DNA of 35,154 nucleotides from a virus (lineage: Duplodnaviria; Heunggongvirae; Uroviricota; Caudoviricetes): IMG/VR virus record IMGVR_UViG_2913152634_000005. One strand, 5' to 3'. Below the pieces are notes generated by a model. It did no database searches and was not told where the DNA came from. It worked only from the letters and a program-made list of their open reading frames with translations. Shown in pieces: positions 10,566-27,245 of this stretch. The position numbers and the translations under genes are program-made. Each line of letters starts with the position of its first letter. Within the stretch, counting starts at the first letter, position 1.

Positions 10566-11329
10566 TACCTAATTTTTAACCTCAACTGATTAAATTTCGG
10601 TCAAACATCCGTTAGTGAAATACAAGTTGCTATGTAAATACACACCTGCAACTTGTATTACCAACCAAGTTTAGCTCCCGATATTACTCATTTCCATTAT
10701 TTTTCCTTGGCTAGCGCTTCGTCGAACATTTTTACGTGTTATCTTCAAGGTAGATGCTCGCAGAAATGATAGTACCACCGATTCGGCGTTGACCATAAGC
10801 CAGCAGAACAAGATCCCCTTGGCCGGTTGTATTCGTTACACCACCAAATGCATAGAATGCCTTGTTATCAGTATCTTGCTTACTCGGCTACCCACAAGAT
10901 TGTGGGGATAGCATTTGAGCAACGTAGCCTATCGTCACAGAAGCCCCTACTACAAACATCATATTACTGGACGCTATACGCGCTCCTGACATTCAGATAG
11001 ACACAGCAACGCAAATCATTTGCAGCAGACCAGAGCTTTTACTTTCCACAATAACTGGCACAAATACGAATTTCCCGACCCTCAGTAGAGAGCACAAGCG
11101 CATCTTTTCCAATATTCTGTTTCCTATGAAAAATACAGAATGTCAGCTCGCGAAATTTACTAGTATTCAGATACTTTTCTAATCGAACCTCTCAGTTTAA
11201 TCGTCATCATTACCTTATAGCTCTGCATTTCGAGTTCCTACAGTAGAGTAAGTGTTCAGTAACCCAAGTTCAGGAGAAAGGAAACGATCATGCCATTTTC
11301 AGTCCCAAATAATGCTTTCCATTTCCTTT

Positions 11330-11480
11330 CTTTTCAGGTGGTGTTTTAAATAAAAACATAAAGTTACGGCGAAGAAGAACGGAAACGCCTTAAACCGGAA
11401 AATTTCCATAAATAGAGAAAAACTGCGCGCCTTCCGCCCCGTAACGCTCCGGATCACCGGAAAGGACCCGCTCAAAAAAA
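11330..11480. other. cos-like DNA packaging site of the integrated element (cosB/cosQ conserved, cosN divergent)
   Basis: About 150 bp with roughly 85-90% identity to the prophage cos region at 27122-27270; cosN position reads GGGCGGAAGGCG versus GGGCGGCGACCT. Confidence 0.7.
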
Positions 11481-11513
11481 GCGGCCACTGACGTGATTGT
11501 TTATGTTCCATGA

Positions 11514-11545
11514 GCGACAAAACCGCCCGGAGGCGGTTTCACATA
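11514..11545 (-). terminator. rho-independent terminator after the gpI-like gene
   Basis: minus-strand CCGCC-tccg-GGCGG stem followed by TTTTG. Confidence 0.5.
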
Positions 11546-11557
11546 AAACATTCTGCA

Positions 11558-12205
11558 TCAGCGACCAATCACCACGATTTCACCACCATCACCTTCATCA
11601 GCTGTGCTGATCTCCTGAGATACCACACGTGACCCCACGCGCATTTCACCGTACAGAACAGGCAGGACATTGCCCTGGGCAACCATGTTATCCAGTGACG
11701 AGAAATACGTGTTCTGCTTACCGTTATCCGTTGTCTGTGTACGGGGAGTTCTGGCTTTCGGTGCCAGCATCTGAGCCACACCGCCAAGGATCATACTGGC
11801 CCCCGCACTATACATTCCTGTAATTGCTGCCGCTCCTAGCCAACCAGCGGGGTTCCACCACGCCACCGCAATCAGCGCCGCCCCCAGCACGGTCTGAAAC
11901 ACACCGCCACTTTTAGCGCCAGCAAGACGCGGTACGATGTGGATCACAGCACCATTCGCCAGCGGCTCATTAAGACGGGCTGATAATTCATTTTCGCCTG
12001 CATCCCGCCCGGCAATCCGTACCTGATACCAACCGTCGCTCAGTTTCTGACGAAACGACGGTAGCTGTGTGGACAGAGCTCGGATGGCTTCAGCCCCCGT
12101 TTTTACACGAAGGTCGATGCGGCGGCCGAATCGTTGCAAATCCCCGTAAAGGCAGATTCGTGCCATGCCCGATGACGCCAGAGGGAGTGTGTGCGTAGTT
12201 GCCAT
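11558..12205 (-). CDS. I: lambda gpI-like tail assembly protein
   Basis: 215 aa; MATTHTLPLASSGMARICLYGDLQRFGRRIDLRVKTG...NTYFSSLDNMVAQGNVLPVLYGEMRVGSRVVSQEISTADEGDGG closely matches lambda gpI as remembered. Confidence 0.8.
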   Translation of the reverse strand: MATTHTLPLASSGMARICLYGDLQRFGRRIDLRVKTGAEAIRALSTQLPSFRQKLSDGWYQVRIAGRDAGENELSARLNEPLANGAVIHIVPRLAGAKSGGVFQTVLGAALIAVAWWNPAGWLGAAAITGMYSAGASMILGGVAQMLAPKARTPRTQTTDNGKQNTYFSSLDNMVAQGNVLPVLYGEMRVGSRVVSQEISTADEGDGGEIVVIGR

Positions 12206-12245
12206 TTGTCGGTATACCTCTCTCGTTTGCTCTGTTGTTCAGAAA

Positions 12246-12629
12246 TTAGCAGATCAACTTATAGCGTCCCTTCCGAGCATTGCGGCGTACACGTTCAATC
12301 TTGAGGCATAGCGCCGCATCTGGCTTTTTTGGGACTGGTACACGGCAATATTCAGAAGCGCGAGGAATATTATTTATCCAGTCAATCACTTCGCTTAAAT
12401 ACCAGGCCTTACGCCCTTCCGTAACCTGCACACGCTCCGGGAACTCTCCACGGGCCTCAAGGTTTAGCAGTGTACGACGACTCAGGGTTGTAAGTTCCAT
12501 CACCTGATTCATATCAACAAGACGCTCGCTTAAACGCATTTTGTCAGCGATAGCTTTTAATTCCTCTACAGCTGGATTTGGGTACATAATTTCGGCAATT
12601 GGCTTAAGGTCATTGTAATGATTCTGCAT
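12246..12629 (-). CDS. AlpA/MerR-like winged-HTH DNA-binding protein (function uncertain; candidate packaging-specificity factor)
   Basis: 127 aa; HTH segment MELTTLSRRTLLNLEARGEFPERVQVTEGRKAWYLSEVIDWI; strong RBS aaggggga. Confidence 0.55.
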   Translation of the reverse strand: MQNHYNDLKPIAEIMYPNPAVEELKAIADKMRLSERLVDMNQVMELTTLSRRTLLNLEARGEFPERVQVTEGRKAWYLSEVIDWINNIPRASEYCRVPVPKKPDAALCLKIERVRRNARKGRYKLIC

Positions 12630-12640
12630 TGTATCCCCCT

Positions 12641-12982
12641 TTACACACGAGCCAGCGGCTGAACAGAAATACCTGAGCCAACAAACGCTGCAACCTTTAC
12701 TGACAGTTCTTTTACAGACTCAGGCCAGTTCAGAGCATCAACATTTAAGACACCTGTCTTATAGACCTGAGCCTGTGTTTTTTTCGCGGTGTCGATTTGT
12801 ACAGCGGATACATAAACCGCTTTACCTACGCTCGTACCATCCCATACCACCAGTGCACCTGTTGCATCTTCCTGCATCAGTGGCGTAAATGCAGGAATTA
12901 CCCCTTTATTAGCTGAAAATATCCCCAGCGTAGTAACCAGTGCTTCAGTGCCAGCCATGAGTTCAGTGTAATGAGTAGCCAT
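12641..12982 (-). CDS. head decoration protein, distant lambda D homologue
   Basis: 113 aa; TPLM...LVVWDGTS.GKAV...Y.KTG...WPE...AF.GSGIS pattern parallels lambda gpD; translationally coupled to the capsid gene. Confidence 0.6.
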   Translation of the reverse strand: MATHYTELMAGTEALVTTLGIFSANKGVIPAFTPLMQEDATGALVVWDGTSVGKAVYVSAVQIDTAKKTQAQVYKTGVLNVDALNWPESVKELSVKVAAFVGSGISVQPLARV

Positions 12983-12991
12983 TGCTCCCCC

Positions 12992-14038
12992 TTAGCCAAT
13001 GCGAACGGTAACAAAACGATTGATGCGGGCCGGTATTGGCTGTGGTGCTGAATGTGTCTGCACATATTCAATAGCCGGATCACCAGGCACAATATAGTTT
13101 TTCGGTGCAAGTTCGGCTTTAGTCAGCCCCATTCGGATTAGCTCCGGATCCTGAATACCGCCATAGGCGACAATCCCCTGAAGAGCCGTATTGCCAAGCA
13201 CCATCAAATCAGGATCAAGGAAATGTTTTTCAGTTCCGTCCTCGTCGGTATAACGCCCGCTGTAAACAACAATCGCAACATCGCCCATATACCCTTTAAA
13301 ACTCACCGAATCACCAAGGTCTTTAAGGGCCGTTTCCAGTTCGGAATTAGAACCACGACGGGTATCCAGAGCCTCTTTTATCGCTCTGAATGAACGGTAT
13401 TTCTTCCATACATTACCGCCCATAATGATGATATTAGTGACGCCCTCACTAAATTCTGCGTAGTTCTCAATATCATCATTTGGATCAAAAGTTTCTTTAT
13501 CCTTACCTGACCACTCAGCACCGCCAGACTGAGTGATGATATTTTGTGGTTTAATATTCCAGTCCAGCTCATAACGTTCAATACCATCGCCCTCAATGAT
13601 ATTTTTCCCCGTTGTGATTGCCTGAACGGCAAGCCATTCAATACGTGCACGAATAGCTTTAGCTTGATTTACAATCGCCTGTTTAACTTTAATATTACGC
13701 GCCCCAAAAGCATTGTATTGCTCAGGTGATACACCAGCAGGGCGCACAGCTAACTTATTTGGATCAATGCTGCTTTTCGGCTTCATATAGCCTGGACGAA
13801 TTGTTTTTGATTCGTACCCTTCGTCACGTGAAACTTTACTACCCACCATAGGAGAACAAAACGCTGCAATTGGGATATTTGGATCGTCGATTGTATCAAG
13901 AATAATATCGCGCGATTCAAACATTACCGAGCGAGTAAAAAACAAACGGGTAAACAACGCATTTAGTTGTTTTTGTACATCTACAGCATTAACCACCTGT
14001 ACAAGCTGGGTAGGCGAATATAAATCAACCATACGCAT
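12992..14038 (-). CDS. major capsid protein, lambda E-like, encoded by the integrated element
   Basis: Conserved blocks ITQSGGAEWSGKDKETFDPNDDIE, DTRRGSNSELETALKDLG, YMGDVAIVVYSG, LGNT shared with lambda gpE at roughly half identity; start at ATG 14036-38 or 14030-32. Confidence 0.82.
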   Translation of the reverse strand: MRMVDLYSPTQLVQVVNAVDVQKQLNALFTRLFFTRSVMFESRDIILDTIDDPNIPIAAFCSPMVGSKVSRDEGYESKTIRPGYMKPKSSIDPNKLAVRPAGVSPEQYNAFGARNIKVKQAIVNQAKAIRARIEWLAVQAITTGKNIIEGDGIERYELDWNIKPQNIITQSGGAEWSGKDKETFDPNDDIENYAEFSEGVTNIIIMGGNVWKKYRSFRAIKEALDTRRGSNSELETALKDLGDSVSFKGYMGDVAIVVYSGRYTDEDGTEKHFLDPDLMVLGNTALQGIVAYGGIQDPELIRMGLTKAELAPKNYIVPGDPAIEYVQTHSAPQPIPARINRFVTVRIG

Positions 14039-14249
14039 CCTCTTTGCATTCATTAAAAATAATTGTGGATATATGCTATCACCGATATTTGTCATGCGAA
14101 TACATGCAACCGAGTGCAATGTTGTATAAAGTTTTGGGATGACAACTTCAGCGCGGATAATTAGTGTTAATATCTTCACTCCCTTTGGTCGGGATTTATG
14201 TAGCATGCCGGAAAATTTATTTTTTTCCGGCCTTTTTTATTGGCAATAT

Positions 14250-14699
14250 TTAAAACGGAATATCATCTCCCCATTGCTCATTATCTCCCACTGGTGGATG
14301 GCTTCCTTGCTGATCTGCCTGTTGTTTTGCTCTGTTCAGTGCGTCAGTAGCCTGCCCCTGTTGGCCTTTTTTGCCGCCCGGTCGCACCGTTCGCGCACTG
14401 ATTACGCTGTCTGCGATAACCTGCCAGCCCTGCCGCGTTTCACCGTTCTGTCCAGTCCACTGACTCACCTGCATGTTACCCGCCACGCTCAGGAGTTCGC
14501 CTTTGTGATGCTTTGCCAGCGCGTCGGCTTGTCTGCCAAACGCCAGAACAGATAACCACATCGTCGCCTGACCGTCATCCGATTGGCTGCAGGGCAGTGA
14601 TACCGCCATACGCGCCAGCGTCATGGGGGTGCCCTTGCTGGTCTGTTTTGTCTGCGGGGCGTCCACCAGCCGCCCGTAAGCTGCTATTTGCGCCGTCAT
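14250..14699 (-). CDS. ssb: single-stranded DNA-binding protein
   Basis: 149 aa; OB-fold SSB pattern, Gly/Gln-rich linker and C-terminal acidic tail DDIPF. Confidence 0.85.
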   Translation of the reverse strand: MTAQIAAYGRLVDAPQTKQTSKGTPMTLARMAVSLPCSQSDDGQATMWLSVLAFGRQADALAKHHKGELLSVAGNMQVSQWTGQNGETRQGWQVIADSVISARTVRPGGKKGQQGQATDALNRAKQQADQQGSHPPVGDNEQWGDDIPF

Positions 14700-14953
14700 G
14701 CTGCCTGCTCTCCGGACTTAATATTGATGGTTGTCACTTCCTCCGCTTCGGCAATCTCCCGTTCGGTCAGCGTGGCAAAGTTTGCAGCCGCCGTTGTCAT
14801 GAATGCGCTTATCAGTTCGGGATGTGCTTTCGCGTATCCTTCCCCGGCGTTGCGGTCTATTGCCTTAATCGCCACCCTTAGCCAGTGTTCAGCCATATCA
14901 AGGGCGCGGTAATGTGGCTTTATATGTTTGTTCAGTTTTCCTGATGTGTGCAT
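14696..14953 (-). CDS. hypothetical protein, translationally coupled to ssb
   Basis: 85-aa ORF; stop overlaps the ssb start. Confidence 0.4.
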   Translation of the reverse strand: MHTSGKLNKHIKPHYRALDMAEHWLRVAIKAIDRNAGEGYAKAHPELISAFMTTAAANFATLTEREIAEAEEVTTINIKSGEQAA

Positions 14954-14989
14954 TTTTATTTTTACCCCCTCGTTTAAAAAGTTTTTTGT

Positions 14990-15240
14990 GCACCACCACC
15001 TTGTCTACCTTGTCTACCTGATTAGTTATCAGGCCAGTAATGGCGCGGGTTTCAGGGAGGTAGACAGCCCCAAATAGCTGTCTACCTCATCTCTACCCGT
15101 CTCCTTACCTGTCTACAAAAATGGGTAGATAAGGTAGATAACAGGTAGACAGTGAAAAATAGTTATCTACCTGCATTAATACATTGAAATAAAAGTATTT
15201 TCTTTCAGTCAGGTAGACAAGGTAGATAACCATTGCCATT
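14990..15240. repeat. iteron array, putative replication origin of the element
   Basis: At least ten copies of GGTAGACA/GGTAGATA and their complements TGTCTACC in both orientations, directly downstream of the helicase gene. Confidence 0.7.
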
Positions 15241-15242
15241 TT

Positions 15243-16334
15243 TTATAAAAACGCATCGCAATCATCAGTAGTCGTTGCGTTGGTCTGCGTGACTCCCTTA
15301 ACTTTTCGCGTAATATATTCATATCCGTAAACTTTCGCCGCTGACCTCATAGCCTTTCCGAACTCATTCACGCTCAAACATTTCCCCTTTCCTGTGTATG
15401 CCATGAAGGCCATATAGACACGGTAAAGGCTGTTTCTGGTCGTGTACTTCACGGAGTCACCACCACCGCCCATCATTAGCCCACGAGCTTCCTCCAGAAA
15501 CTCAAGCGCCGCGCAAAGCTCAACAACTGGATCCGTTTGCTGCTTTATTGCCAGAGCTTCATCACCGTCACGCTGTTCCAGTAGTAAAGCCCTTGCCTTT
15601 TCAGGGTCAGCAAAGTTAGCCAGCAAGCGGCGGATAATTACGGGGATTTCTGCCGCTATCTTTTCCGGTAATTCCTTGTCTTTTTCGTCCTCCCTTACAA
15701 TGTTGTCGAACCGGAAAATCACCCGACGGCGTGACACACCTCCGGCCCGTTCGGTAAAGATCATCGGGTCGTTATTGGTTGCCAGTACCACCGCCCTTAT
15801 TATCGTCGTGAATCGCTTCTCATATTTCGGATTGATTTCAACGGGATCGCCTCCCGTGATTTTCTTGATGCCCGTGCCTTCCCCCGTATATTTCGGCTGA
15901 TCGGCAAGGACGATAAGACGACTCCCGACAACCTGCGCGCGCCCTCCTGCATCATCGAGTGATGTCATCTCTGCGCTTACGGTGTTCTGTTTGCCTGCAA
16001 GCAGGGTGGCAATATGGGTAAATGTACTCTTACCGCTTCCCCCGTCTCCGGTGGCCTCAATGAACATCTGCCAGTCGTAGCGGTTCGCCATAATCATGTA
16101 TAACGCGGCACATATACGCATCATCTTGCGCGGGTCTTTTCCTGCAGCATGTTCAAGCCATTTATGGAAATTTGGCGCATTATCGCGGATGTTTTCCCCT
16201 GCTACTGGTGGCGTGTACTCAATACCATTGTGCGTGGTGCTCCAGTGCTCCGGCGAGTGCGGAGAAAATTCCCCCGTTTTCAGATTAAGCACACCATTAG
16301 TGAACGGTAGCAAATCACCGGACGGCTCCCCCAT
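15243..16334 (-). CDS. replicative helicase domain protein (P4-alpha/D5-type, SF3)
   Basis: 363 aa; Walker A GDGGSGKST, Walker B LIVLADQP; FTNGVLNLKTGEF motif typical of the D5_N/primase linker. Confidence 0.8.
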   Translation of the reverse strand: MGEPSGDLLPFTNGVLNLKTGEFSPHSPEHWSTTHNGIEYTPPVAGENIRDNAPNFHKWLEHAAGKDPRKMMRICAALYMIMANRYDWQMFIEATGDGGSGKSTFTHIATLLAGKQNTVSAEMTSLDDAGGRAQVVGSRLIVLADQPKYTGEGTGIKKITGGDPVEINPKYEKRFTTIIRAVVLATNNDPMIFTERAGGVSRRRVIFRFDNIVREDEKDKELPEKIAAEIPVIIRRLLANFADPEKARALLLEQRDGDEALAIKQQTDPVVELCAALEFLEEARGLMMGGGGDSVKYTTRNSLYRVYMAFMAYTGKGKCLSVNEFGKAMRSAAKVYGYEYITRKVKGVTQTNATTTDDCDAFL

Positions 16335-16993
16335 GGGGCGGCAATAACTTTTAACGCTTCCACGGCGTTATTGATTACGCGTTTGCTGAACGTGGCCCTG
16401 TGCTCTGAATAGATCGCCACCATTTCGCGGCTCAGCTCCATTGTGCTGACCGGACACCATACCCCGCCGCGCCATACGTGGACGATTTCACTTTCTGCAT
16501 GAACACAAACACCATCAAAGCGATCGGCAAGTAGTTGTGCCCGCTCACTGTCTGCCATCTGTGAAAGTTGCGCCTTTTGCTTCGTCGGAAGATTAAGCAC
16601 CAGGCTTTCCCCACGCTCGCATTCCTCTTTGAGTCGCGGCAACTGGTCGGATAAATCCACAGGGCTGGTGTCAGTAATCCCCGCGTATTCGTGTACGGTC
16701 TTCACTCCAGCCACAGCCAGTAACGTAACAATCTGCGTCATGCTGTGCTCTGTGATATGTCCTGCGCGGTAAACACGCACACACTGACGATCTTCATCAA
16801 TGATCCGGTAATCGGTGATGTTTTTCAGTTGCTCATCAGCCAGCACGACAGGCGGCACATCGTCGGCGGCAATATGTTTACCCGCCCATTCCTGCCACTC
16901 TTTCGCATGGCTCCACGCATCACTACCTGCAAAGATGATTACCTCTGTCAGTCTGTCGCGTGGCTGTTTTTTTAAGTTCGGTGCCAGTTTCAT
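16280..16993 (-). CDS. primase-like replication protein, N-terminal module (overlaps the helicase ORF by 55 nt in another frame)
   Basis: 237-aa ORF upstream of the helicase; the overlap suggests one primase-helicase gene split by a frameshift. Confidence 0.5.
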   Translation of the reverse strand: MKLAPNLKKQPRDRLTEVIIFAGSDAWSHAKEWQEWAGKHIAADDVPPVVLADEQLKNITDYRIIDEDRQCVRVYRAGHITEHSMTQIVTLLAVAGVKTVHEYAGITDTSPVDLSDQLPRLKEECERGESLVLNLPTKQKAQLSQMADSERAQLLADRFDGVCVHAESEIVHVWRGGVWCPVSTMELSREMVAIYSEHRATFSKRVINNAVEALKVIAAPWGSRPVICYRSLMVCLI

Positions 16994-17289
16994 TTTTTGC
17001 CCCTGAATGCGTTAATCATGCTTTTCATTTTCTGGATGTTTCCCCGCGCTTTTTCCCTGCTGGTGGGCTTACTGCGGGGTGCGGCATATACCAGGGAAAA
17101 ATCACGCCGGAACTGATAAACAGGCATCACGCAGTCATAGCTATACCCCTCACGGCGGTAAGTGATGCGCCGTTCTGCCACGCCTTTAATCGTTACCGTG
17201 CCGCCGTATTTATCGCGGTAAATATCGCCGTTCATAAATTCAGGCCGAGCGGGGCCGCTGGCAATAAAGCCAGAATTTTTCATTTCCAT
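16990..17289 (-). CDS. hypothetical protein
   Basis: 99-aa ORF, stop overlaps the primase start (ATGA). Confidence 0.4.
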   Translation of the reverse strand: MEMKNSGFIASGPARPEFMNGDIYRDKYGGTVTIKGVAERRITYRREGYSYDCVMPVYQFRRDFSLVYAAPRSKPTSREKARGNIQKMKSMINAFRGKK

Positions 17290-17306
17290 ATTATTTATTC
17301 TTCGAC

Positions 17307-17528
17307 TTAACTCGACTTATTTGATAGCAGGGCACTATTTATTGCGTCATTGAGTTTTTCTGCTGCTTCATCAATAAGTGACAACAGGCCATAAGCAATA
17401 TTTGCATCTTCATTGTCATTTATGCAATCAAGCCACATATTTAATATTGCTTTTGCTGAATTATTTAAAGTTAATGAACTCTCTGCACATGCTAACAATT
17501 TAAAAAAGACTTCTCGTTCTGTATTCAT
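17307..17528 (-). CDS. hypothetical protein
   Basis: 73-aa ORF in a tightly packed leftward operon. Confidence 0.35.
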   Translation of the reverse strand: MNTEREVFFKLLACAESSLTLNNSAKAILNMWLDCINDNEDANIAYGLLSLIDEAAEKLNDAINSALLSNKSS

Positions 17529-17720
17529 TTAATCCCCCACCAGCTTACTTTCTTCCTCAATCAGGAAACTAGCGACACTTCCCGAAAGGCGCGCCAGTAG
17601 GCTCGCCAGCGCGGATATATCAGCATCTGTAATTTTGTTCGGGTATACCTCAAGAAGGCGGCAAATAATCTCTGTTTGGTGCGCACGTTCAGCGGCTTCG
17701 TGTAATGTGATTTCCTGCAT
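17529..17720 (-). CDS. hypothetical protein
   Basis: 63-aa ORF abutting its neighbours. Confidence 0.35.
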   Translation of the reverse strand: MQEITLHEAAERAHQTEIICRLLEVYPNKITDADISALASLLARLSGSVASFLIEEESKLVGD

Positions 17721-17905
17721 TAATGCACCTCTTTTAATTCATACACTGCTGAAATAATGACTTGTGATAAGCCATATTCTGATGATTCGCTTCTCACCGC
17801 AGCAATAGCCGTCTGAACATTAACAGCCTTCACGTTCTGAGCGATACCAATTGTGTGGCCTCGTGGGTTAACAGCTCGGGCAAATACACGGAAGGTTTTA
17901 AGCAC
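17720..17905 (-). CDS. hypothetical protein
   Basis: 61-aa ORF abutting its neighbours. Confidence 0.35.
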   Translation of the reverse strand: MLKTFRVFARAVNPRGHTIGIAQNVKAVNVQTAIAAVRSESSEYGLSQVIISAVYELKEVH

Positions 17906-18161
17906 GGCGCACCTCCTGACGAATACGGGCAGCGAATACCATCACGCAGCCAGTTGGGGATTGCTGGCGGGCTTCCTGTTCGCTGATGGCCTCGATGGTA
18001 ATCACGCGCGGTTGTGCCGTACTCAAGGCGATAAAACGCCAGATGTATTTATTCAGGTTGTGCGAGTTCCGCCCTTGCGGGTGTGTGGTATGATTTCTCA
18101 TAGCTACCTCGATACTGTTGCTATCGTTGGTGGTTAAACGCCCTGTATGTGTTGCGAGCAC
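17898..18161 (-). CDS. hypothetical protein, first gene of the leftward operon
   Basis: 87-aa ORF starting next to the divergent promoter region. Confidence 0.35.
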   Translation of the reverse strand: MLATHTGRLTTNDSNSIEVAMRNHTTHPQGRNSHNLNKYIWRFIALSTAQPRVITIEAISEQEARQQSPTGCVMVFAARIRQEVRRA

Positions 18162-18196
18162 TGCAGGGCGTTGTTCCAGAGCAATAAAACATGATA

Positions 18197-18240
18197 AGGT
18201 GTGTACCTATCAAGAAGCATACTAAGCAATAGGTACATAC
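18197..18240. promoter_or_regulatory. inverted-repeat operator in a divergent promoter region
   Basis: TGTACCTAT (18202-18210) and ATAGGTACA (18229-18237) form a 9-bp inverted repeat immediately upstream of the RHH gene. Confidence 0.45.
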
Positions 18241-18435
18241 ATGTCAACTATCATTCAGCGCGATAAACAGCCGAAAGGTGCTGGTAAGGCACCGGCATTT
18301 CAGATCCGTATCAACCCGGAACTAAAAGAACAAATGGTTAGTGCGGCTGCAAAAGAAGGAATGAGTTTGGCTAATTGGCTTAAAGAACTAGCAAGAGCAG
18401 AACTACGCAAACAAGGTATTGAACCTAGAGGTTAA
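18241..18435 (+). CDS. ribbon-helix-helix DNA-binding protein (repressor or antitoxin-like)
   Basis: 64 aa; beta-strand FQIRINPEL followed by two helices (KEQMVSAAAKEG / MSLANWLKELARAEL), typical of CopG/Arc RHH proteins. Confidence 0.55.
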   Translation: MSTIIQRDKQPKGAGKAPAFQIRINPELKEQMVSAAAKEGMSLANWLKELARAELRKQGIEPRG

Positions 18436-18459
18436 GACTTTTAAAAGGATCTGTGAGAG

Positions 18460-19185
18460 ATGCAAAATCTAAAACGAATAAGTGAATATAATTTAACAGA
18501 CAATCCTATCCCACATTATTTCCCTCATGATAGTAGATTCCTGTCTCTACTTGGGAAATTTTCGTTCCGACTTGAAGATCTAATAGTATTTCACTCATTT
18601 GTTTATCATACATATAACATAAATCTTAAGGAGATACAAAAAATTGCAGATAACACTCCCCAATATAATCCAGACTTATTAGACGATGAAGAGCATGAAA
18701 TGGCCTTGATTTCTCAAGCCAGACATAGAGAGAGGGTTGGTTATTATGATGATCTTAATAGAAAAGCCTCATTTTTTGCCAATGACAGTGTCGTAATTAA
18801 TCTTTGGGCTATTATTGAACAGTTTAGTACCATGGCATACTCTTTGCTAGAAGCAATTATTAAAGAAATACCTGAAAATCAAGTTAAAGTTCCATATACA
18901 TGGGATAAATTAAAAAAGAAATACTTAAGTTATGGTATTGACCTCTCCCAACTTGATTCTTACGATGTCATTAACGAAACTAGGGTTTTAAACAACAAAA
19001 TCAAACACCTTTATATTGTCGATGAAAACCTTGCCTCTTTTCCTTTTTTCAAGGACAAAGAGAACAAGTCATTATTAGGAATGGAATATAGGCTTCAAGA
19101 TTATGTTATTGGAACTCATAAGTTCATCGGGCATCTTTTAGAGGATTGCTCCATAAAATTAGGAAATAAGGCAAACATGATTTAA
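18460..19185 (+). CDS. hypothetical protein, AT-rich cargo gene (candidate toxin or defence effector)
   Basis: 241-aa ORF 24 nt after the RHH gene; no family recognised; visibly AT-rich. Confidence 0.5.
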   Translation: MQNLKRISEYNLTDNPIPHYFPHDSRFLSLLGKFSFRLEDLIVFHSFVYHTYNINLKEIQKIADNTPQYNPDLLDDEEHEMALISQARHRERVGYYDDLNRKASFFANDSVVINLWAIIEQFSTMAYSLLEAIIKEIPENQVKVPYTWDKLKKKYLSYGIDLSQLDSYDVINETRVLNNKIKHLYIVDENLASFPFFKDKENKSLLGMEYRLQDYVIGTHKFIGHLLEDCSIKLGNKANMI

Positions 19186-19189
19186 ATTA

Positions 19190-19222
19190 ATTAGGTAGGT
19201 AATAAACCTACCTAATTGAAAT
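19190..19222. terminator. bidirectional terminator hairpin between convergent genes
   Basis: Perfect palindrome TTAGGTAGGT-aataaa-CCTACCTAA. Confidence 0.55.
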
Positions 19223-19225
19223 GAT

Positions 19226-19459
19226 TTACTTATTTAAGTACCATTCCCCACGAATCCACGCCTGCACCTCCGAAAGGCGATATGCTACGGCAGTGGCACC
19301 TATTTTAATTCGCTTTGGAAACTTTCCTTCTTTCTCTAACTTCCATCGAGTGCTATTAGCAAGAGTAGTTAACTCACGGCATTCTTTCTCACGGATCATT
19401 CGGTCAATGTTAGGAATGTATTCCAGACCCTTTTTATCAACAATTGCCATTTTTTTCAT
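19226..19459 (-). CDS. alpA: AlpA-family excisionase/transcriptional regulator
   Basis: 77 aa; HTH CRELTTLANSTRWKLEKEGKFPKRIKIG; immediately downstream of int. Confidence 0.7.
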   Translation of the reverse strand: MKKMAIVDKKGLEYIPNIDRMIREKECRELTTLANSTRWKLEKEGKFPKRIKIGATAVAYRLSEVQAWIRGEWYLNK

Positions 19460-19460
19460 G

Positions 19461-20573
19461 TTAACCAGCCTTTTGTTTGAGGATTGTCACTTTTGAATCA
19501 GCAGCTGCGATGCTATTGAGATATGTAGTCCAGAGTTCCAGAGCATCCAGTTTTTTAGCCATAAACTTACTCCGGTTGTAAACACCTGCCACGCCAGGTA
19601 GCGCATGGCCTAACAGTTGTTCTACTACATAAAATTCAACACCGAGATCACTTAGATGAGTAGATAGCGTTCTTCTAAGGTCGTGTAGTGACCATTGTTT
19701 TTCATGGCCCAAACGTTTACCGATTTTCCCCCCAATCTTGCTTACGCTTTCTCTAATTCGCAGACTTCCCAGCACATAACCAGTATGTTTTGTCTCTTCG
19801 TGAACATCCGTTACCCACTGTCGTAGAATTTCAGGTACTGGTCTGACGATTTCAACACCAGTTTTTGAGTGATCTTTTGGTACAGTCCAAACCCAACTTT
19901 CGAGATCCCATTCGCTCCATTCTGATAATCGGGCTTCACTCATTCGACATCCAAATACTGTACAAAGCACAAACATTTTTCGCGTGTATTCAGACATTAG
20001 TTTTAAATCAGGCTCGACAAAAATTGCCTTCCAGAGCTGGCCGAGTTCGGCTTCATCCAGAACCCGATCCCGCTTACCTGCAATCTGCCCCACATCACTC
20101 ATGCGCAAATCCTTTAAAGCATCACACGTCGCGTACTGGCGTACCCGACAAAAACGAAGAGCTAATTTAGTGTCAGAAAAAACATACGCCGCCATAACTG
20201 GTGCATTACTTTTAATTCGGTCAAAACAGTCCAGCCATTCATATAGGTGAGTGTCATTTACGGGCAAATGACCGATATAGGGAAAGATATGCTTTCGAAA
20301 TCTGCCAAGCGTTACAGCATGAGTTTTACGACGCACCTTACAGTAATTTTCATACCAGTAATTTAGTGCATCCTCCACTGTGACCGGCTTTAAGCGTTCT
20401 TCAGCCTGAATCTTAATCTGGATACGCGGATCACGTTTGTCAGCCAACCAAGCACGGCACTCGTCGCGCTTTTCCCTTGCCTGTTTGAGTGACATATCAG
20501 GATATTTACCCAACGTTAGCCAGACCGGAGCAGCCCGGCCACCTGCTAACCTGTAGAAGAAAACAAAGCTCAC
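19461..20573 (-). CDS. int: tyrosine integrase (P4-type), catalytic portion; N-terminal arm-binding segment lies in another frame at 20573-20695
   Basis: 370 aa with R...HDLRRT...LLGH...Y tyrosine-recombinase motifs; ORF 20570-20827 encodes the expected N-terminus MAGENKLSDKALKGYLGKPREKQITIADGKGLSIRVSTKGL and stops 1 nt out of frame. Confidence 0.8.
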   Translation of the reverse strand: MSFVFFYRLAGGRAAPVWLTLGKYPDMSLKQAREKRDECRAWLADKRDPRIQIKIQAEERLKPVTVEDALNYWYENYCKVRRKTHAVTLGRFRKHIFPYIGHLPVNDTHLYEWLDCFDRIKSNAPVMAAYVFSDTKLALRFCRVRQYATCDALKDLRMSDVGQIAGKRDRVLDEAELGQLWKAIFVEPDLKLMSEYTRKMFVLCTVFGCRMSEARLSEWSEWDLESWVWTVPKDHSKTGVEIVRPVPEILRQWVTDVHEETKHTGYVLGSLRIRESVSKIGGKIGKRLGHEKQWSLHDLRRTLSTHLSDLGVEFYVVEQLLGHALPGVAGVYNRSKFMAKKLDALELWTTYLNSIAAADSKVTILKQKAG

Positions 20574-20827
20574 AGCCCCTTGGTACTCACACGAATAGAA
20601 AGCCCCTTTCCATCAGCAATGGTGATCTGCTTTTCTCTGGGTTTCCCCAGATATCCTTTAAGTGCTTTGTCGCTCAGTTTGTTCTCGCCAGCCATTTTTA
20701 GCCCCAAAAAGCAATACAAGCTGCAATACAGAGATGATTGCAACACACAGATAACGAGGAAAATCCAGTGAAAGCGCCAGATAAACTTATTCTTTATTAT
20801 CAAAAGATTAAGTGTAAAAACCAGCAA

Positions 20828-21103
20828 CTACACGAAAGCCTCAGAAAGCCATGCTAAGTGCTTCGGCTTGACATATCCCGGCGTAAATTCAGAGGTGGAG
20901 CCGCCACGGGAGCGGATAACCTCACCGGAAACAATCGGCGAAACGTACAGCGCCATGTTTACCAGCCCCGGAATTTGTGAGAGATAGACTTTCTCCGTGG
21001 TGAAGGGATAGCTCTCACGGAAAAAGAGACGCAGAAACAGCGGATCAAACTTAAATTTCTGCTCATTTGCCGCCAGCAGCTGGGCGGTTGTGTACATCGA
21101 CAT
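20828..21103 (-). pseudogene. E: major capsid protein E, 5' fragment (codons 1-84 plus 9 element-derived codons)
   Basis: MSMYTTAQLLAANEQKFKFDPLFLRLFFRESYPFTTEKVYLSQIPGLVNMALYVSPIVSGEVIRSRGGSTSEFTPGYVKPKH matches lambda gpE 1-84, then LAWLSEAFV-stop. Confidence 0.88.
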
Positions 21104-21158
21104 AAAAAAATCCCGTAAAAAAAGCCGCAAAGGCGGCCTTTAGTGATGAAGGGTCAGG

Positions 21159-21491
21159 TTAAACGATGCTGATTGCCGTTCCGGCAAACGCGGTCCGTTT
21201 TTTCGTCTCGTCGCTGGCAGCATCCGGCCAGAGCACATCCTCATAACGGAACGTGCCGGACTTGTAGAACGTCAGCGTGGTGCTGGTCTGGTCAGCAGCA
21301 ACCGCCAGAATGCCAACAGCAGCACCGTCAGTGGTGCCATCCCACGCAACCAGCTTACGGGTGGAGGTATCCGGCATCAGCGGGGTCATTGCAGGCGTTT
21401 TCGCACTCAATCCGCCGGGCGCGGTTGCGGTATGAGCCGGGTCACTGTTGCCCAGCGGCTGGTAATGGGTAAAGGTTTCTTTGCTCGTCAT
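21159..21491 (-). CDS. D: head decoration protein D
   Basis: [12 protein letters not shown]...[11 protein letters not shown] near-identical to lambda gpD. Confidence 0.92.
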
Positions 21492-27119: not shown

Positions 27120-27245
27120 TTCCTTTCTTTTCAGGGGGTATTTTAAATAAAAACACTAAGTTACGACGAAGAAGAACGGAAACGCCTTAAACCGGAAAAT
27201 TTTCATAAATAGCGAAAACCCGCGAGGTCGCCGCCCCGTAGCCTG
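27120..27245. other. prophage cos site (cosB, cosN at 27216-27227, cosQ)
   Basis: Minus strand reads ...CAGGCTACG GGGCGGCGACCT CGCGGGTTTTCGCTATTTATGAAAATTTTCCGGTTTAAGGCG..., the lambda cos as remembered. Confidence 0.85.

What the first reader, a model, noticed from the sequence alone, without database searches (positions are those of the whole stretch)
10566..11300. Decayed coding remnant between the Abi-like gene and the element cos
There is no intact ORF, but the minus strand gives protein-like stretches broken by stops (for example SKQDTDNKAFYAFGGVTNTTGQGDLVLLAYGQRRIGGTIISASIYLEDNT). This is where a terminase small-subunit gene would sit relative to cos. A stable hairpin (ATACAAGTTGC...GCAACTTGTAT) lies just after the Abi-like gene stop.
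Basis: seen in the sequence. Interest (0 to 1): 0.35.

Follow-up and report, generated by a model that had tools for sequence, protein, structure and literature searches.

The report
Dead tail-tip gene in phage satellite
The broken coding stretch is a dead copy of a phage tail-tip gene (lambda gpI family), not a lost small-terminase gene; it sits just after the packaging site of a known kind of phage satellite embedded in a prophage capsid gene, and is ordinary except that intact copies occupy the same slot in related satellites.

Summary
Window 10566-11300 has no ORF longer than 57 aa. Its minus strand carries a decayed gene (11228->10732), and the hairpin at 10620-10658 is real.

The implied identity is wrong. 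The remnant belongs to the lambda gpI tail-tip protein family (PHROG 32, E 6e-37; phage HK225 I, 61% over 108 aa). It shows no similarity to Nu1/TerS.

Five lesions separate it from intact relatives: an 86-bp deletion, a +1 insertion, a 12-bp deletion and two nonsense codons.

The host element (about 9446-20858) is a helper-embedded PICI of the published 11capE type, inserted in the major capsid gene of a lambdoid prophage. The remnant starts 45 nt after cosB R1, which is the Nu1 position.

Intact counterparts occupy this slot in satellites of Kluyvera and Citrobacter, and sit after TerL in an E. coli fis island. With the remnant they form one clade apart from phage K-I-J genes (bootstrap 87/100). 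Three of them give dN/dS of 0.06-0.15.

The copy here is a non-functional relic and of low interest in itself. The recurring satellite-borne I gene is a modest lead.

The parts
10732..11228 (-). Pseudogene (I') of a satellite-borne tail-tip/tail-assembly protein I gene. Start ATG is 11226-11228 and the original stop TAA is 10732-10734.
   Evidence: HK225 I: 61% over 111 aa plus a second HSP in another frame. Closest intact protein is P0001 (C. freundii, 197 aa): 68% identity, 99% of query covered, E 1e-51. PHROG 32 E 6e-37. 80.4% nt identity to the intact gene in L011.
11184..11185 (-). Junction of an 86-bp deletion, which removes about codons 15-43 of the ubiquitin-like N-domain and shifts the frame.
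   Evidence: Nucleotide alignments to the intact genes of L011, L012, L013 and L015. Coordinates. The PHROG match starts at profile position 41. Pfam PF06805 is no longer detected.
11062..11064 (-). +1 insertion in a T run (ATT -> ATTT), giving a second frameshift.
11012..11013 (-). Junction of a 12-bp in-frame deletion (four codons in hydrophobic helix 1).
10993..10995 (-). Nonsense codon TGA; intact relatives have TGG (Trp) here.
10888..10890 (-). Nonsense codon TAG; intact relatives have TTG/CTA (Leu) here.
11274..11286 (-). cosB R1 element of the satellite's lambda-type cos. It lies inside the reported interval.
   Evidence: Alignment A1 with lambda and the resident prophage cos; coordinates.
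11319..11471 (-). Rest of the satellite cos: R2 11319-11331, R3 11374-11387, cosN 12-nt overhang GGGCGGAAGGCG 11428-11439, cosQ 11459-11471.
   Evidence: 3692 E. coli records match this segment.
10620..10658 (.). 11-bp inverted repeat (17-nt loop) between the convergent I' and Abi genes. Possible bidirectional terminator or RNA-stabilising hairpin.
   Evidence: Fold z-scores -4.1 (+) and -6.3 (-). Not called by the terminator consensus scan.
9804..10565 (+). Cargo gene in the variable slot: AbiJ-like abortive-infection protein, convergent with I'.
   Evidence: Pfam Abi_C E 1.7e-23. PADLOC AbiJ E 2.4e-22.
11503..12246 (-). Separately captured segment on the cosQ side: 3' end of a K gene plus an intact lambda-type I gene (ORF 11558-12205). 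Absent from the otherwise identical element in strain VCSW7.
   Evidence: about 91% identity to K-I of many E. coli prophages. Pfam Lambda_tail_I E 1e-23.
9446..20858 (-). The host element: a helper-embedded PICI (11capE type) that splits the prophage major capsid gene (C-part 8664-9452, N-part about 20860-21105).
   Evidence: RefSeq annotation of the identical locus. att junction sequences. Tommasini et al. 2023, PMC10111431.

Best explanation
Window 10732-11228 (minus strand) is a dead copy of a tail-tip protein I gene (lambda gpI family, N15/HK225 subtype). It belongs to the satellite, not to the helper prophage.

The satellite is a helper-embedded PICI of the 11capE type. In this PICI lineage an I-like gene is the last late-zone gene. 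It starts about 45 nt after cosB R1, the position Nu1 holds in lambda, and it faces the oppositely oriented defence cargo (here AbiJ-like).

In this E. coli sub-lineage the gene has been inactivated by an 86-bp deletion, a +1 insertion, a 12-bp deletion and two nonsense substitutions. It makes no I protein.

What the DNA does now is passive. It is a spacer between cosB and the convergent cargo cassette. Read-through late transcripts would cross it and meet the 10620-10658 hairpin.

Shown: the homology, the lesions, the orthologous slot, and the intact counterparts in other satellites.

Inferred: the reason for the loss. The PICI's N15/HK225-type I is only 27% identical to the lambda-type I of the helpers it now sits in, so it probably could not fit the helper's gpJ and became useless.
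For: Homology.
- BLASTP to the lambda-type I in the window: 33% over 131 aa, E 2e-14.
- tblastn against phages: 1628 records, HK225 I 60.7%, E 4e-33.
- 5.8-billion-protein search: best hit is a 197-aa tail assembly protein, 68% identity, 99% coverage, E 1e-51, carrying PF06805.
- PHROG 32 E 6e-37.
- The intact homologue matches solved lambda tail-tip gpI (8iyk_I, E 8e-21).

Lesions. Frameshift-aware and nucleotide alignments locate five lesions.

Context. The identical RefSeq locus shows int, AlpA, primase, SSB, MCP, decoration protein, AlpA-like gene, cos and Abi inside a split major capsid gene. This matches the published HE-PICI 11capE.

Orthologous slot. In Kluyvera georgiana (L015) the order is MCP (87% aa identity), decoration protein, 127-aa AlpA-like gene, cos R3/R2/R1, then an intact 199-aa I. 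The R2-R1-ATG junction is about 88% identical to the window by my count from A2.

Other intact copies in satellites: L011, L012, L013, L033 and L036 (cos, DUF1441, I, cargo) and L038 (TerL, I, att at fis).

Phylogeny. All satellite copies plus this remnant form one NJ clade apart from the 21 phage K-I-J genes in the tree, bootstrap 87/100.

Selection. dN/dS is 0.055-0.15 between three intact satellite copies (L011, L012, L013) and 0.33 for the repaired remnant against L011.

Helper mismatch. The intact helper of the same PICI in strain VCSW7 has a lambda-type I. The remnant is 27% identical to the lambda-type I captured in the window.
Against: - Pfam PF06805 does not detect the remnant. The 86-bp deletion in the N-domain explains this, but the first about 15 codons are assigned only by nucleotide alignment to the satellite genes.
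- The three E. coli genomes that carry the remnant are 100% identical across it, so relaxed constraint cannot be measured within the lineage.
- Another E. coli HE-PICI variant (L003) has an I' C-terminal fragment only about 75% identical at nucleotide level, while the core genes are 94-99% identical. The slot has therefore been exchanged by recombination, not simply inherited.
- The low dN/dS among satellite copies could partly reflect time spent in phages.
- The mismatch-with-helper explanation is inference only.
Confidence: 0.88

Rival explanations
1. It is a decayed small-terminase (Nu1/TerS) gene, as its position right after cosB suggests.
For: The position is right: Nu1 starts 34 nt after R1 in lambda. 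The relative L007 has an intact terS there. 11capE keeps a Nu1 N-terminal stub there.
Against: tblastn with the prophage Nu1 finds no match in 9400-12700 at E 1e-3. There is no Nu1 or HTH family hit. From the start codon to the stop codon the remnant aligns with I-family genes. Only 45 nt lie between R1 and the I' start, which leaves no room for a terS trace.
Confidence: 0.01
2. The remnant is a piece of a helper prophage tail operon, captured directly by this E. coli satellite (late-gene capture) and then decayed. It was not inherited from an ancestral satellite gene.
For: Tommasini et al. propose cycles of late-gene capture and loss in the PICI Late zone. The same element shows a clear capture of K'-I on the other side of cos. 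Phage I genes of Trabulsiella and HK225 are nearly as similar to the remnant (54-57%) as some satellite copies.
Against: The remnant keeps the satellite-specific N-terminus (MQS.KVM.TIKL) and upstream junction, which the nearest phage copies (HK225 and the Trabulsiella prophages L016/L017) lack; a few more distant phage copies have a short partly similar lead-in. It has no K fragment upstream and no J downstream. It groups with the satellite copies at bootstrap 87/100. The cosB-to-ATG junction is orthologous with the Kluyvera PICI.
Confidence: 0.08
3. The region is still functional. Either it is read as a gene through recoding (frameshifting or read-through), or it is a required cis-acting extension of the packaging signal or a regulatory RNA.
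For: It adjoins cosB. I' fragments persist in at least two diverged cargo-slot variants and about 20 genomes. There is a stable hairpin at its 3' side.
Against: Five independent lesions include loss of 28 codons of the N-domain. Relatives show progressively shorter fragments, or none at all, with the same cos (L003, L008, L005, L007), so the sequence is dispensable for the element type. There is no Rfam hit. Promoter- and terminator-like sites are no more frequent than in shuffled sequence.
Confidence: 0.03

Closest known systems
Phage lambda gpI, tail tip assembly protein I (PDB 8IYK/8IYL/8XCG; Pfam PF06805 N-domain)
   Same: Same protein family. The conserved hydrophobic helices, plug segment and C-terminal beta-strand region are recognisable in the remnant (YG.RR.GG..IS). 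Per PMC11101478, gpI is a trimer inside the tail tip that plugs the tube and may insert into the outer membrane.
   Different: Only 27-33% identical to lambda-type I. It is a pseudogene. It is not in a K-I-J operon but lies next to cos in a satellite.
Tail assembly protein I of N15 (gp20) and HK225 (gp19), and other N15/HK225-type siphophages
   Same: Closest phage subtype: 53-61% identity over the C-terminal 108 aa.
   Different: The phage genes overlap K and are followed by J. The closest ones lack the MQ.TEVMTT N-terminal extension of the satellite copies.
Satellite-borne I genes: Kluyvera georgiana tRNA-Ile2 PICI (L015); Citrobacter/Kluyvera Clp-site HE-PICIs (L011, L012, L013, L033, L036); E. 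coli fis island with a cf-PICI-type packaging module (L038); 'Lambda_tail_I' in the Klebsiella HE-PICI gene strings of Tommasini et al.
   Same: Same clade (bootstrap 87/100). Same place as the last co-oriented late gene before the cargo. In L015 the cosB-to-ATG junction is also the same.
   Different: Those copies are intact (194-199 aa), and the three tested pairwise are under purifying selection. The window copy is broken.
HE-PICI 11capE of E. coli NRG857c (Tommasini, Mageeney and Williams 2023, PMC10111431)
   Same: Same integration site in the prophage capsid gene E, same gene order, and core late genes 94-99% identical.
   Different: In the slot after cos, 11capE has a 64-aa ORF that begins with the Nu1 N-terminus, followed by DUF262/HEPN cargo. 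It has no I remnant.
Lambda Nu1 (small terminase)
   Same: Occupies the same position relative to cosB.
   Different: No sequence relationship to the remnant.

Membership tests
Tail tip / tail assembly protein I (lambda gpI family; PHROG 32) | Sequence homology across the hydrophobic helices, the plug and the C-terminal beta-strand region | tested here: met
   BLASTP E 2e-14; tblastn E 4e-33; E 1e-51 to an intact 197-aa member; PHROG 32 E 6e-37.
Tail tip / tail assembly protein I (lambda gpI family; PHROG 32) | N-terminal ubiquitin-like domain (Pfam PF06805 Lambda_tail_I) | tested here: not met
   No Pfam hit for the conceptual translation. The 86-bp deletion removes about codons 15-43. Intact clade members do carry PF06805.
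Tail tip / tail assembly protein I (lambda gpI family; PHROG 32) | Uninterrupted ORF of about 190-220 codons | tested here: not met
   Two frameshifting indels, two nonsense codons and a 12-bp deletion. It is a pseudogene of the family, not a working member.
Tail tip / tail assembly protein I (lambda gpI family; PHROG 32) | Location between K and J in a siphophage tail operon | tested here: not met
   Flanked by cosB and a convergent Abi gene inside a PICI. The phage homologues examined do sit K-I-J.
Small terminase Nu1/TerS | Sequence similarity to a TerS family (winged-HTH N-domain plus oligomerisation domain) | tested here: not met
   No tblastn hit with the resident Nu1. No Pfam or PHROG terminase hit.
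Small terminase Nu1/TerS | First gene downstream of cosB | tested here: met
   The start codon is 45 nt after R1. Position alone does not define the family.
Helper-embedded PICI, 11capE type (host element) | [quoted passage not shown] | tested here: met
   E fragments at 8664-9452 and about 20860-21105. The junction lies at ...KPKH|EVNPQ.
Helper-embedded PICI, 11capE type (host element) | Zone order: Integration (Int, AlpA), Bro, Replication (primase, SSB), Late (capsid genes) | tested here: met
   RefSeq annotation of the identical locus. AlpA-type hits. Core genes 94-99% identical to 11capE.
Helper-embedded PICI, 11capE type (host element) | Helper-type cos site for packaging | tested here: met
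   cosQ, cosN and R3/R2/R1 align with lambda and with the resident prophage cos.
Helper-embedded PICI, 11capE type (host element) | Excision and helper-dependent transfer on induction | not testable with these tools
   Needs an experiment. In this strain the helper has lost its tail genes next to an IS3, so transfer is unlikely.
Rho-independent terminator (for the 10620-10658 hairpin) | G+C-rich stem with a short loop, followed by a U tract | tested here: not met
   Not reported by the consensus scan. The loop is 17 nt and there is no T run on the plus strand. The hairpin itself is stable.

The most novel reading that the evidence does not exclude
Gram-negative PICIs of several types carry their own clade of the tail-tip plug protein gpI as the last late gene, directly after cos or after TerL. 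[quoted passage not shown]

On this reading, these satellites do not merely steal tails. They install a satellite-encoded component in the helper's tail tip, and that component must match the helper's gpJ.

The window would then record a helper switch. The N15/HK225-type I became incompatible with lambda-type helpers and decayed. In two of the three genomes a lambda-type I (with a K fragment) was later captured on the other side of cos as a replacement.
Probability: 0.3. Interest if true: 0.55.

Novelty: new member of a known kind. Interest (0 to 1): 0.25.

Why it matters
The remnant itself is an ordinary pseudogene in a published class of element. Its main value is to correct the annotation: it is tail-tip protein I, not small terminase.

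Following it led to a pattern that the papers I could search list only in a supplementary gene table and do not discuss. Intact, conserved gpI-like genes occupy the last late-zone slot of several PICI types, including one with a capsid-forming packaging module, a type described as stealing only tails. Purifying selection was measured on three of these copies.

gpI is the trimeric plug of the lambda tail tip and is thought to help open a channel during DNA ejection (PMC11101478). A satellite-encoded version could therefore affect tail compatibility, ejection or host range. That idea can be tested with existing strains: Kluyvera georgiana ATCC 51603 and E. coli FDAARGOS_1283.

Tried and rejected
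- Small terminase. tblastn of the resident Nu1 against 9400-12700 gave no hit. Pfam and PHROGs gave no terminase hit. Rejected.
- Short intact ORFs in the interval (57 aa on +, 46 aa on -). No family hits. Treated as chance ORFs.
- Structured RNA. An Rfam E-value scan of 9000-21200 found nothing.
- Canonical terminator or promoter signals. The scan found no more sites than in shuffled sequence and did not call the hairpin.
- Co-capture of Abi and I from a prophage moron slot. The exact Abi gene occurs only in the same three genomes. Its 66%-identical relatives sit in other HE-PICIs next to a terS, not next to I. Phage matches are few and partial. No support.
- Simple in-situ divergence of the I' fragments of the window and SCU-316. 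Rejected because the fragments are about 75% identical while flanking core genes are 94-99% identical, with 1-15% divergence at four-fold sites.
- Less-decayed copies in 5426 complete E. coli genomes. Only three carriers were found, all identical.
- The 127-aa HTH gene upstream of cos as an Rpp/TerS-like protein. By sequence it matches AlpA (8c3t, E 1.6e-10) and no Rpp or TerS structure. Left open.

Full report
**Observation.** Window 10566-11300 contains no ORF longer than 57 aa. The minus strand shows long protein-like stretches broken by stop codons. The inverted repeat ATACAAGTTGC/GCAACTTGTAT lies at 10620-10630 and 10648-10658, 55 nt after the stop of the Abi-like gene (9804-10565). It is much more stable than shuffled sequence, with z -4.1 as plus-strand RNA and -6.3 as minus-strand RNA.

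**What the remnant is.** By eye and by BLASTP, the conceptual translation aligns with the tail assembly protein I gene that lies 300 bp away in the window (11558-12205): 33% identity over 131 aa, E 2e-14. tblastn against 50,697 phage records finds 1628 records. All the listed annotated hits fall on tail assembly/tail tip protein I genes, the best being HK225 at 60.7% over 108 aa, E 4e-33, followed by N15 gp20 and similar genes.

A search of 5.8 billion proteins returns a 197-aa 'tail assembly protein' of Citrobacter freundii: 68% identity, 99% of the query covered, E 1e-51, Pfam PF06805. PHROG 32 'tail assembly protein' matches with E 6e-37, starting at profile position 41. That intact homologue matches the solved lambda tail-tip protein gpI (8iyk_I, E 8e-21).

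Nothing resembles a small terminase. The resident prophage's Nu1 finds no match in 9400-12700, and Pfam and PHROGs give no terminase hit.

**Lesions.** The evidence comes from a frameshift-aware alignment to HK225 I, tblastn HSPs in two frames, and nucleotide alignments to four intact genes. Together they define a pseudogene from ATG 11226-11228 to TAA 10732-10734 with five lesions (coordinates):
- an 86-bp deletion at 11184|11185, which removes about codons 15-43 of the ubiquitin-like N-domain and explains why Pfam PF06805 is no longer detected;
- a +1 T insertion at 11062-11064;
- a 12-bp in-frame deletion at 11012|11013;
- TGG>TGA at 10993-10995;
- TTG>TAG at 10888-10890.

Nucleotide identity to the intact Citrobacter gene is 80.4% over 496 aligned positions.

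**Context.** The window is 100% identical to E. coli 2015C-4136CT1. RefSeq annotation of that locus and the junction sequences show an 11.4-kb island at about 9446-20858. Its gene order is int, AlpA, Bro-like zone, Icd-like gene, DUF4222, primase, SSB, its own major capsid and decoration genes, a second AlpA-like gene, cos, then cargo. [quoted passage not shown]

This is the helper-embedded PICI (HE-PICI) '11capE' type described by Tommasini, Mageeney and Williams 2023 (PMC10111431). The core late genes are 94-99% identical to 11capE of strain NRG857c.

**cos and the slot.** Alignment with lambda and with the resident prophage's own cos identifies five sites on the minus strand: cosQ (11459-11471), the cosN overhang (11428-11439), R3 (11374-11387), R2 (11319-11331) and R1 (11274-11286). 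The upper 27 bases of the reported interval are therefore cosB. The pseudogene starts 45 nt after R1, where Nu1 starts in lambda.

One HE-PICI variant (L007) has an intact terS in this slot. 11capE has a 64-aa ORF there that begins with the first 13 residues of Nu1. The occupant in this window, however, is an I gene.

**Intact counterparts.** The closest intact proteins were traced to their contigs, and a scan of one genome per species was added.
- In Citrobacter, Kluyvera and two unidentified assemblies from sequencing runs, the order is ClpP-capsid fusion, lambda-like cos, a 62-85-aa DUF1441 ORF, I (194-199 aa), then cargo. In L012 and L033 the remainder of an interrupted helper ClpP-capsid gene follows, so these are helper-embedded islands at the Clp site; L011 has the same layout.
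- In Kluyvera georgiana ATCC 51603 (L015) a PICI next to tRNA-Ile2 has an MCP 87% identical to the window's, a decoration protein, the 127-aa AlpA-like gene, cos with R3/R2/R1, and then an intact 199-aa I. The R2-R1-ATG junction is about 88% identical to the window by my count from alignment A2.
- An E. coli island at fis with a capsid-forming packaging module ends with TerS, TerL, I (199 aa).

In contrast, 19 other loci from the species scan have the usual phage order K-I-J, and one more shows I followed directly by J.

In an NJ tree all seven satellite-borne proteins and the window remnant form one cluster apart from the phage genes, with bootstrap 87/100. Most satellite copies share an N-terminal extension, MQ(S/N)(T/I)EVMT(T/N)IKLSGSLAK; the fis island copy has a variant of it. 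The remnant keeps this as MQSYKVMMTIKLRGS. Pairwise dN/dS among three intact satellite copies is 0.055-0.15, and 0.33 for the repaired remnant against L011.

**History (inference).** The three E. coli genomes that carry the remnant are identical over all 755 bp, so the decay predates their split. Another E. coli variant (SCU-316, HYM1) keeps only the last 51 codons of an I' that is about 75% identical at nucleotide level. About 17 further genomes match only the cos-proximal end of that segment, which overlaps the start of the fragment. Flanking core genes differ by only 1-6%, so the slot between cosB and att is exchanged as a cassette rather than inherited strictly vertically.

The intact helper of the same PICI in strain VCSW7 has a lambda-type I and a gene annotated as J. 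The remnant is only 27% identical to the lambda-type I captured in the window. gpI threads through gpJ in the solved tail tip (PMC11101478), so a mismatched I would probably be useless, which would explain the decay.

In two of the three genomes a 744-bp piece (the 3' end of K plus an intact lambda-type I, 11503-12246, about 91% identical to many prophages) has been inserted between the AlpA-like gene and cosQ. This is either an unrelated late-gene capture or a functional replacement. I cannot tell which.

**Mechanism today.** The remnant encodes nothing. No start codon precedes the conserved C-terminal segment, and the largest in-frame piece is 34 aa. Its DNA is a spacer between cosB and the convergent AbiJ-like cargo (PADLOC AbiJ E 2e-22).

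The hairpin lies between the two convergent transcription units. A similar inverted repeat follows the intact I gene in L013 (by eye). It is a plausible bidirectional terminator or RNA-stabilising structure, but it fails the canonical terminator pattern and is unproven.

**Known versus new.** The element class, its cos, late-gene capture and the variable defence cargo are all published. The remnant is a new instance of a known thing: a decayed late gene in a PICI Late zone.

What I did not find discussed is the recurrence of an intact, selected I-like gene as the terminal late gene of several PICI types. Searches found no discussion; only a listing appears in a supplementary table.

**Caveats.**
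- The tree rests on 29 sequences and NJ distances.
- dN/dS among satellite copies could include time spent in phages.
- The word-indexed protein search returned only nine hits, so the clade is under-sampled.
- The E. coli survey covers complete genomes only, at blastn sensitivity.
- The incompatibility and replacement scenarios are inference.

Noticed in passing
window 9446-20858 (E fragments 8664-9452 and about 20860-21105): An 11.4-kb helper-embedded PICI of the published 11capE type splits the major capsid gene of a lambdoid prophage at about codon 80 (...KPKH|EVNPQ). It carries its own E-like capsid gene and D-like decoration gene.
   Followed up: yes
window 11503-12246 (plus 31 unassigned bases at 11472-11502): The 3' end of a K gene plus an intact lambda-type I gene has been inserted exactly between the stop of the AlpA-like gene and cosQ. 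It is present in 2015C-4136CT1 and Z1323HEC0355 and absent from the otherwise identical element in VCSW7. So cos is flanked by a live I gene on one side and a dead I gene of another subtype on the other.
   Followed up: partly
window 11428-11439 versus about 27225-27236: The satellite's 12-nt cohesive-end sequence is GGGCGGAAGGCG. Other capE HE-PICIs have GGGCGTCAGGCG. The helper prophage in the same window and lambda have GGGCGGCGACCT. Satellite and helper ends would therefore not anneal to each other, although cosQ and R3/R1 are nearly identical.
   Followed up: no
window about 5478-6914 (from L001 annotation): An IS3 element abuts a truncated tail-tube gene, and chromosomal genes (vWA', pphC, yegI, yegD, alkA) follow. 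The helper prophage in this strain has lost all tail genes beyond V, so the prophage-satellite composite is probably immobile here. VCSW7 keeps the full tail module.
   Followed up: partly
window 9574-10565; L003 7621-8493; L005 6957-8673; L007 5697-7690; L008 2630-3565: The slot between cosB and att is a cargo hotspot with a different occupant in each variant: AbiJ-like (window), a restriction endonuclease, DUF262 plus HEPN, terS plus a 91-aa ORF plus an Abi 66% identical at nucleotide level, or a 311-aa hypothetical protein.
   Followed up: partly
window 12246-12629: The 127-aa gene just upstream of cos is a second AlpA-family HTH protein (PHROG 2790 E 3.5e-48; PDB 8c3t E 1.6e-10). By sequence it is not detectably Rpp- or TerS-like. 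Unlike EcCICFT073, this PICI keeps phage-type cosB R elements.
   Followed up: partly
window 15058-15230: Clustered direct repeats (AGGTAGACAG...CTGTCTACCT twice, and GGTAGATAAGGTAGATAAC twice) lie just downstream of the primase gene. They look like iterons and are probably the satellite origin of replication.
   Followed up: no
L011 7640-8014; L013 6640-7039; L012 480-865: In Citrobacter/Kluyvera Clp-site HE-PICIs a lambda-like cosQ/cosN is followed by a short DUF1441 ORF (62-85 aa) and then the intact I gene. By my reading the DUF1441 ORF looks like a TerS N-terminal DNA-binding domain. This is a different solution for the Nu1 slot.
   Followed up: partly
L015 8993-9068: The Kluyvera georgiana PICI with the intact I gene lies next to a CAT-anticodon tRNA (tRNA-Ile2/ileX by its mug-rpoD neighbourhood), not inside a prophage. 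The same late module therefore occurs in both helper-embedded and chromosomal PICIs.
   Followed up: partly
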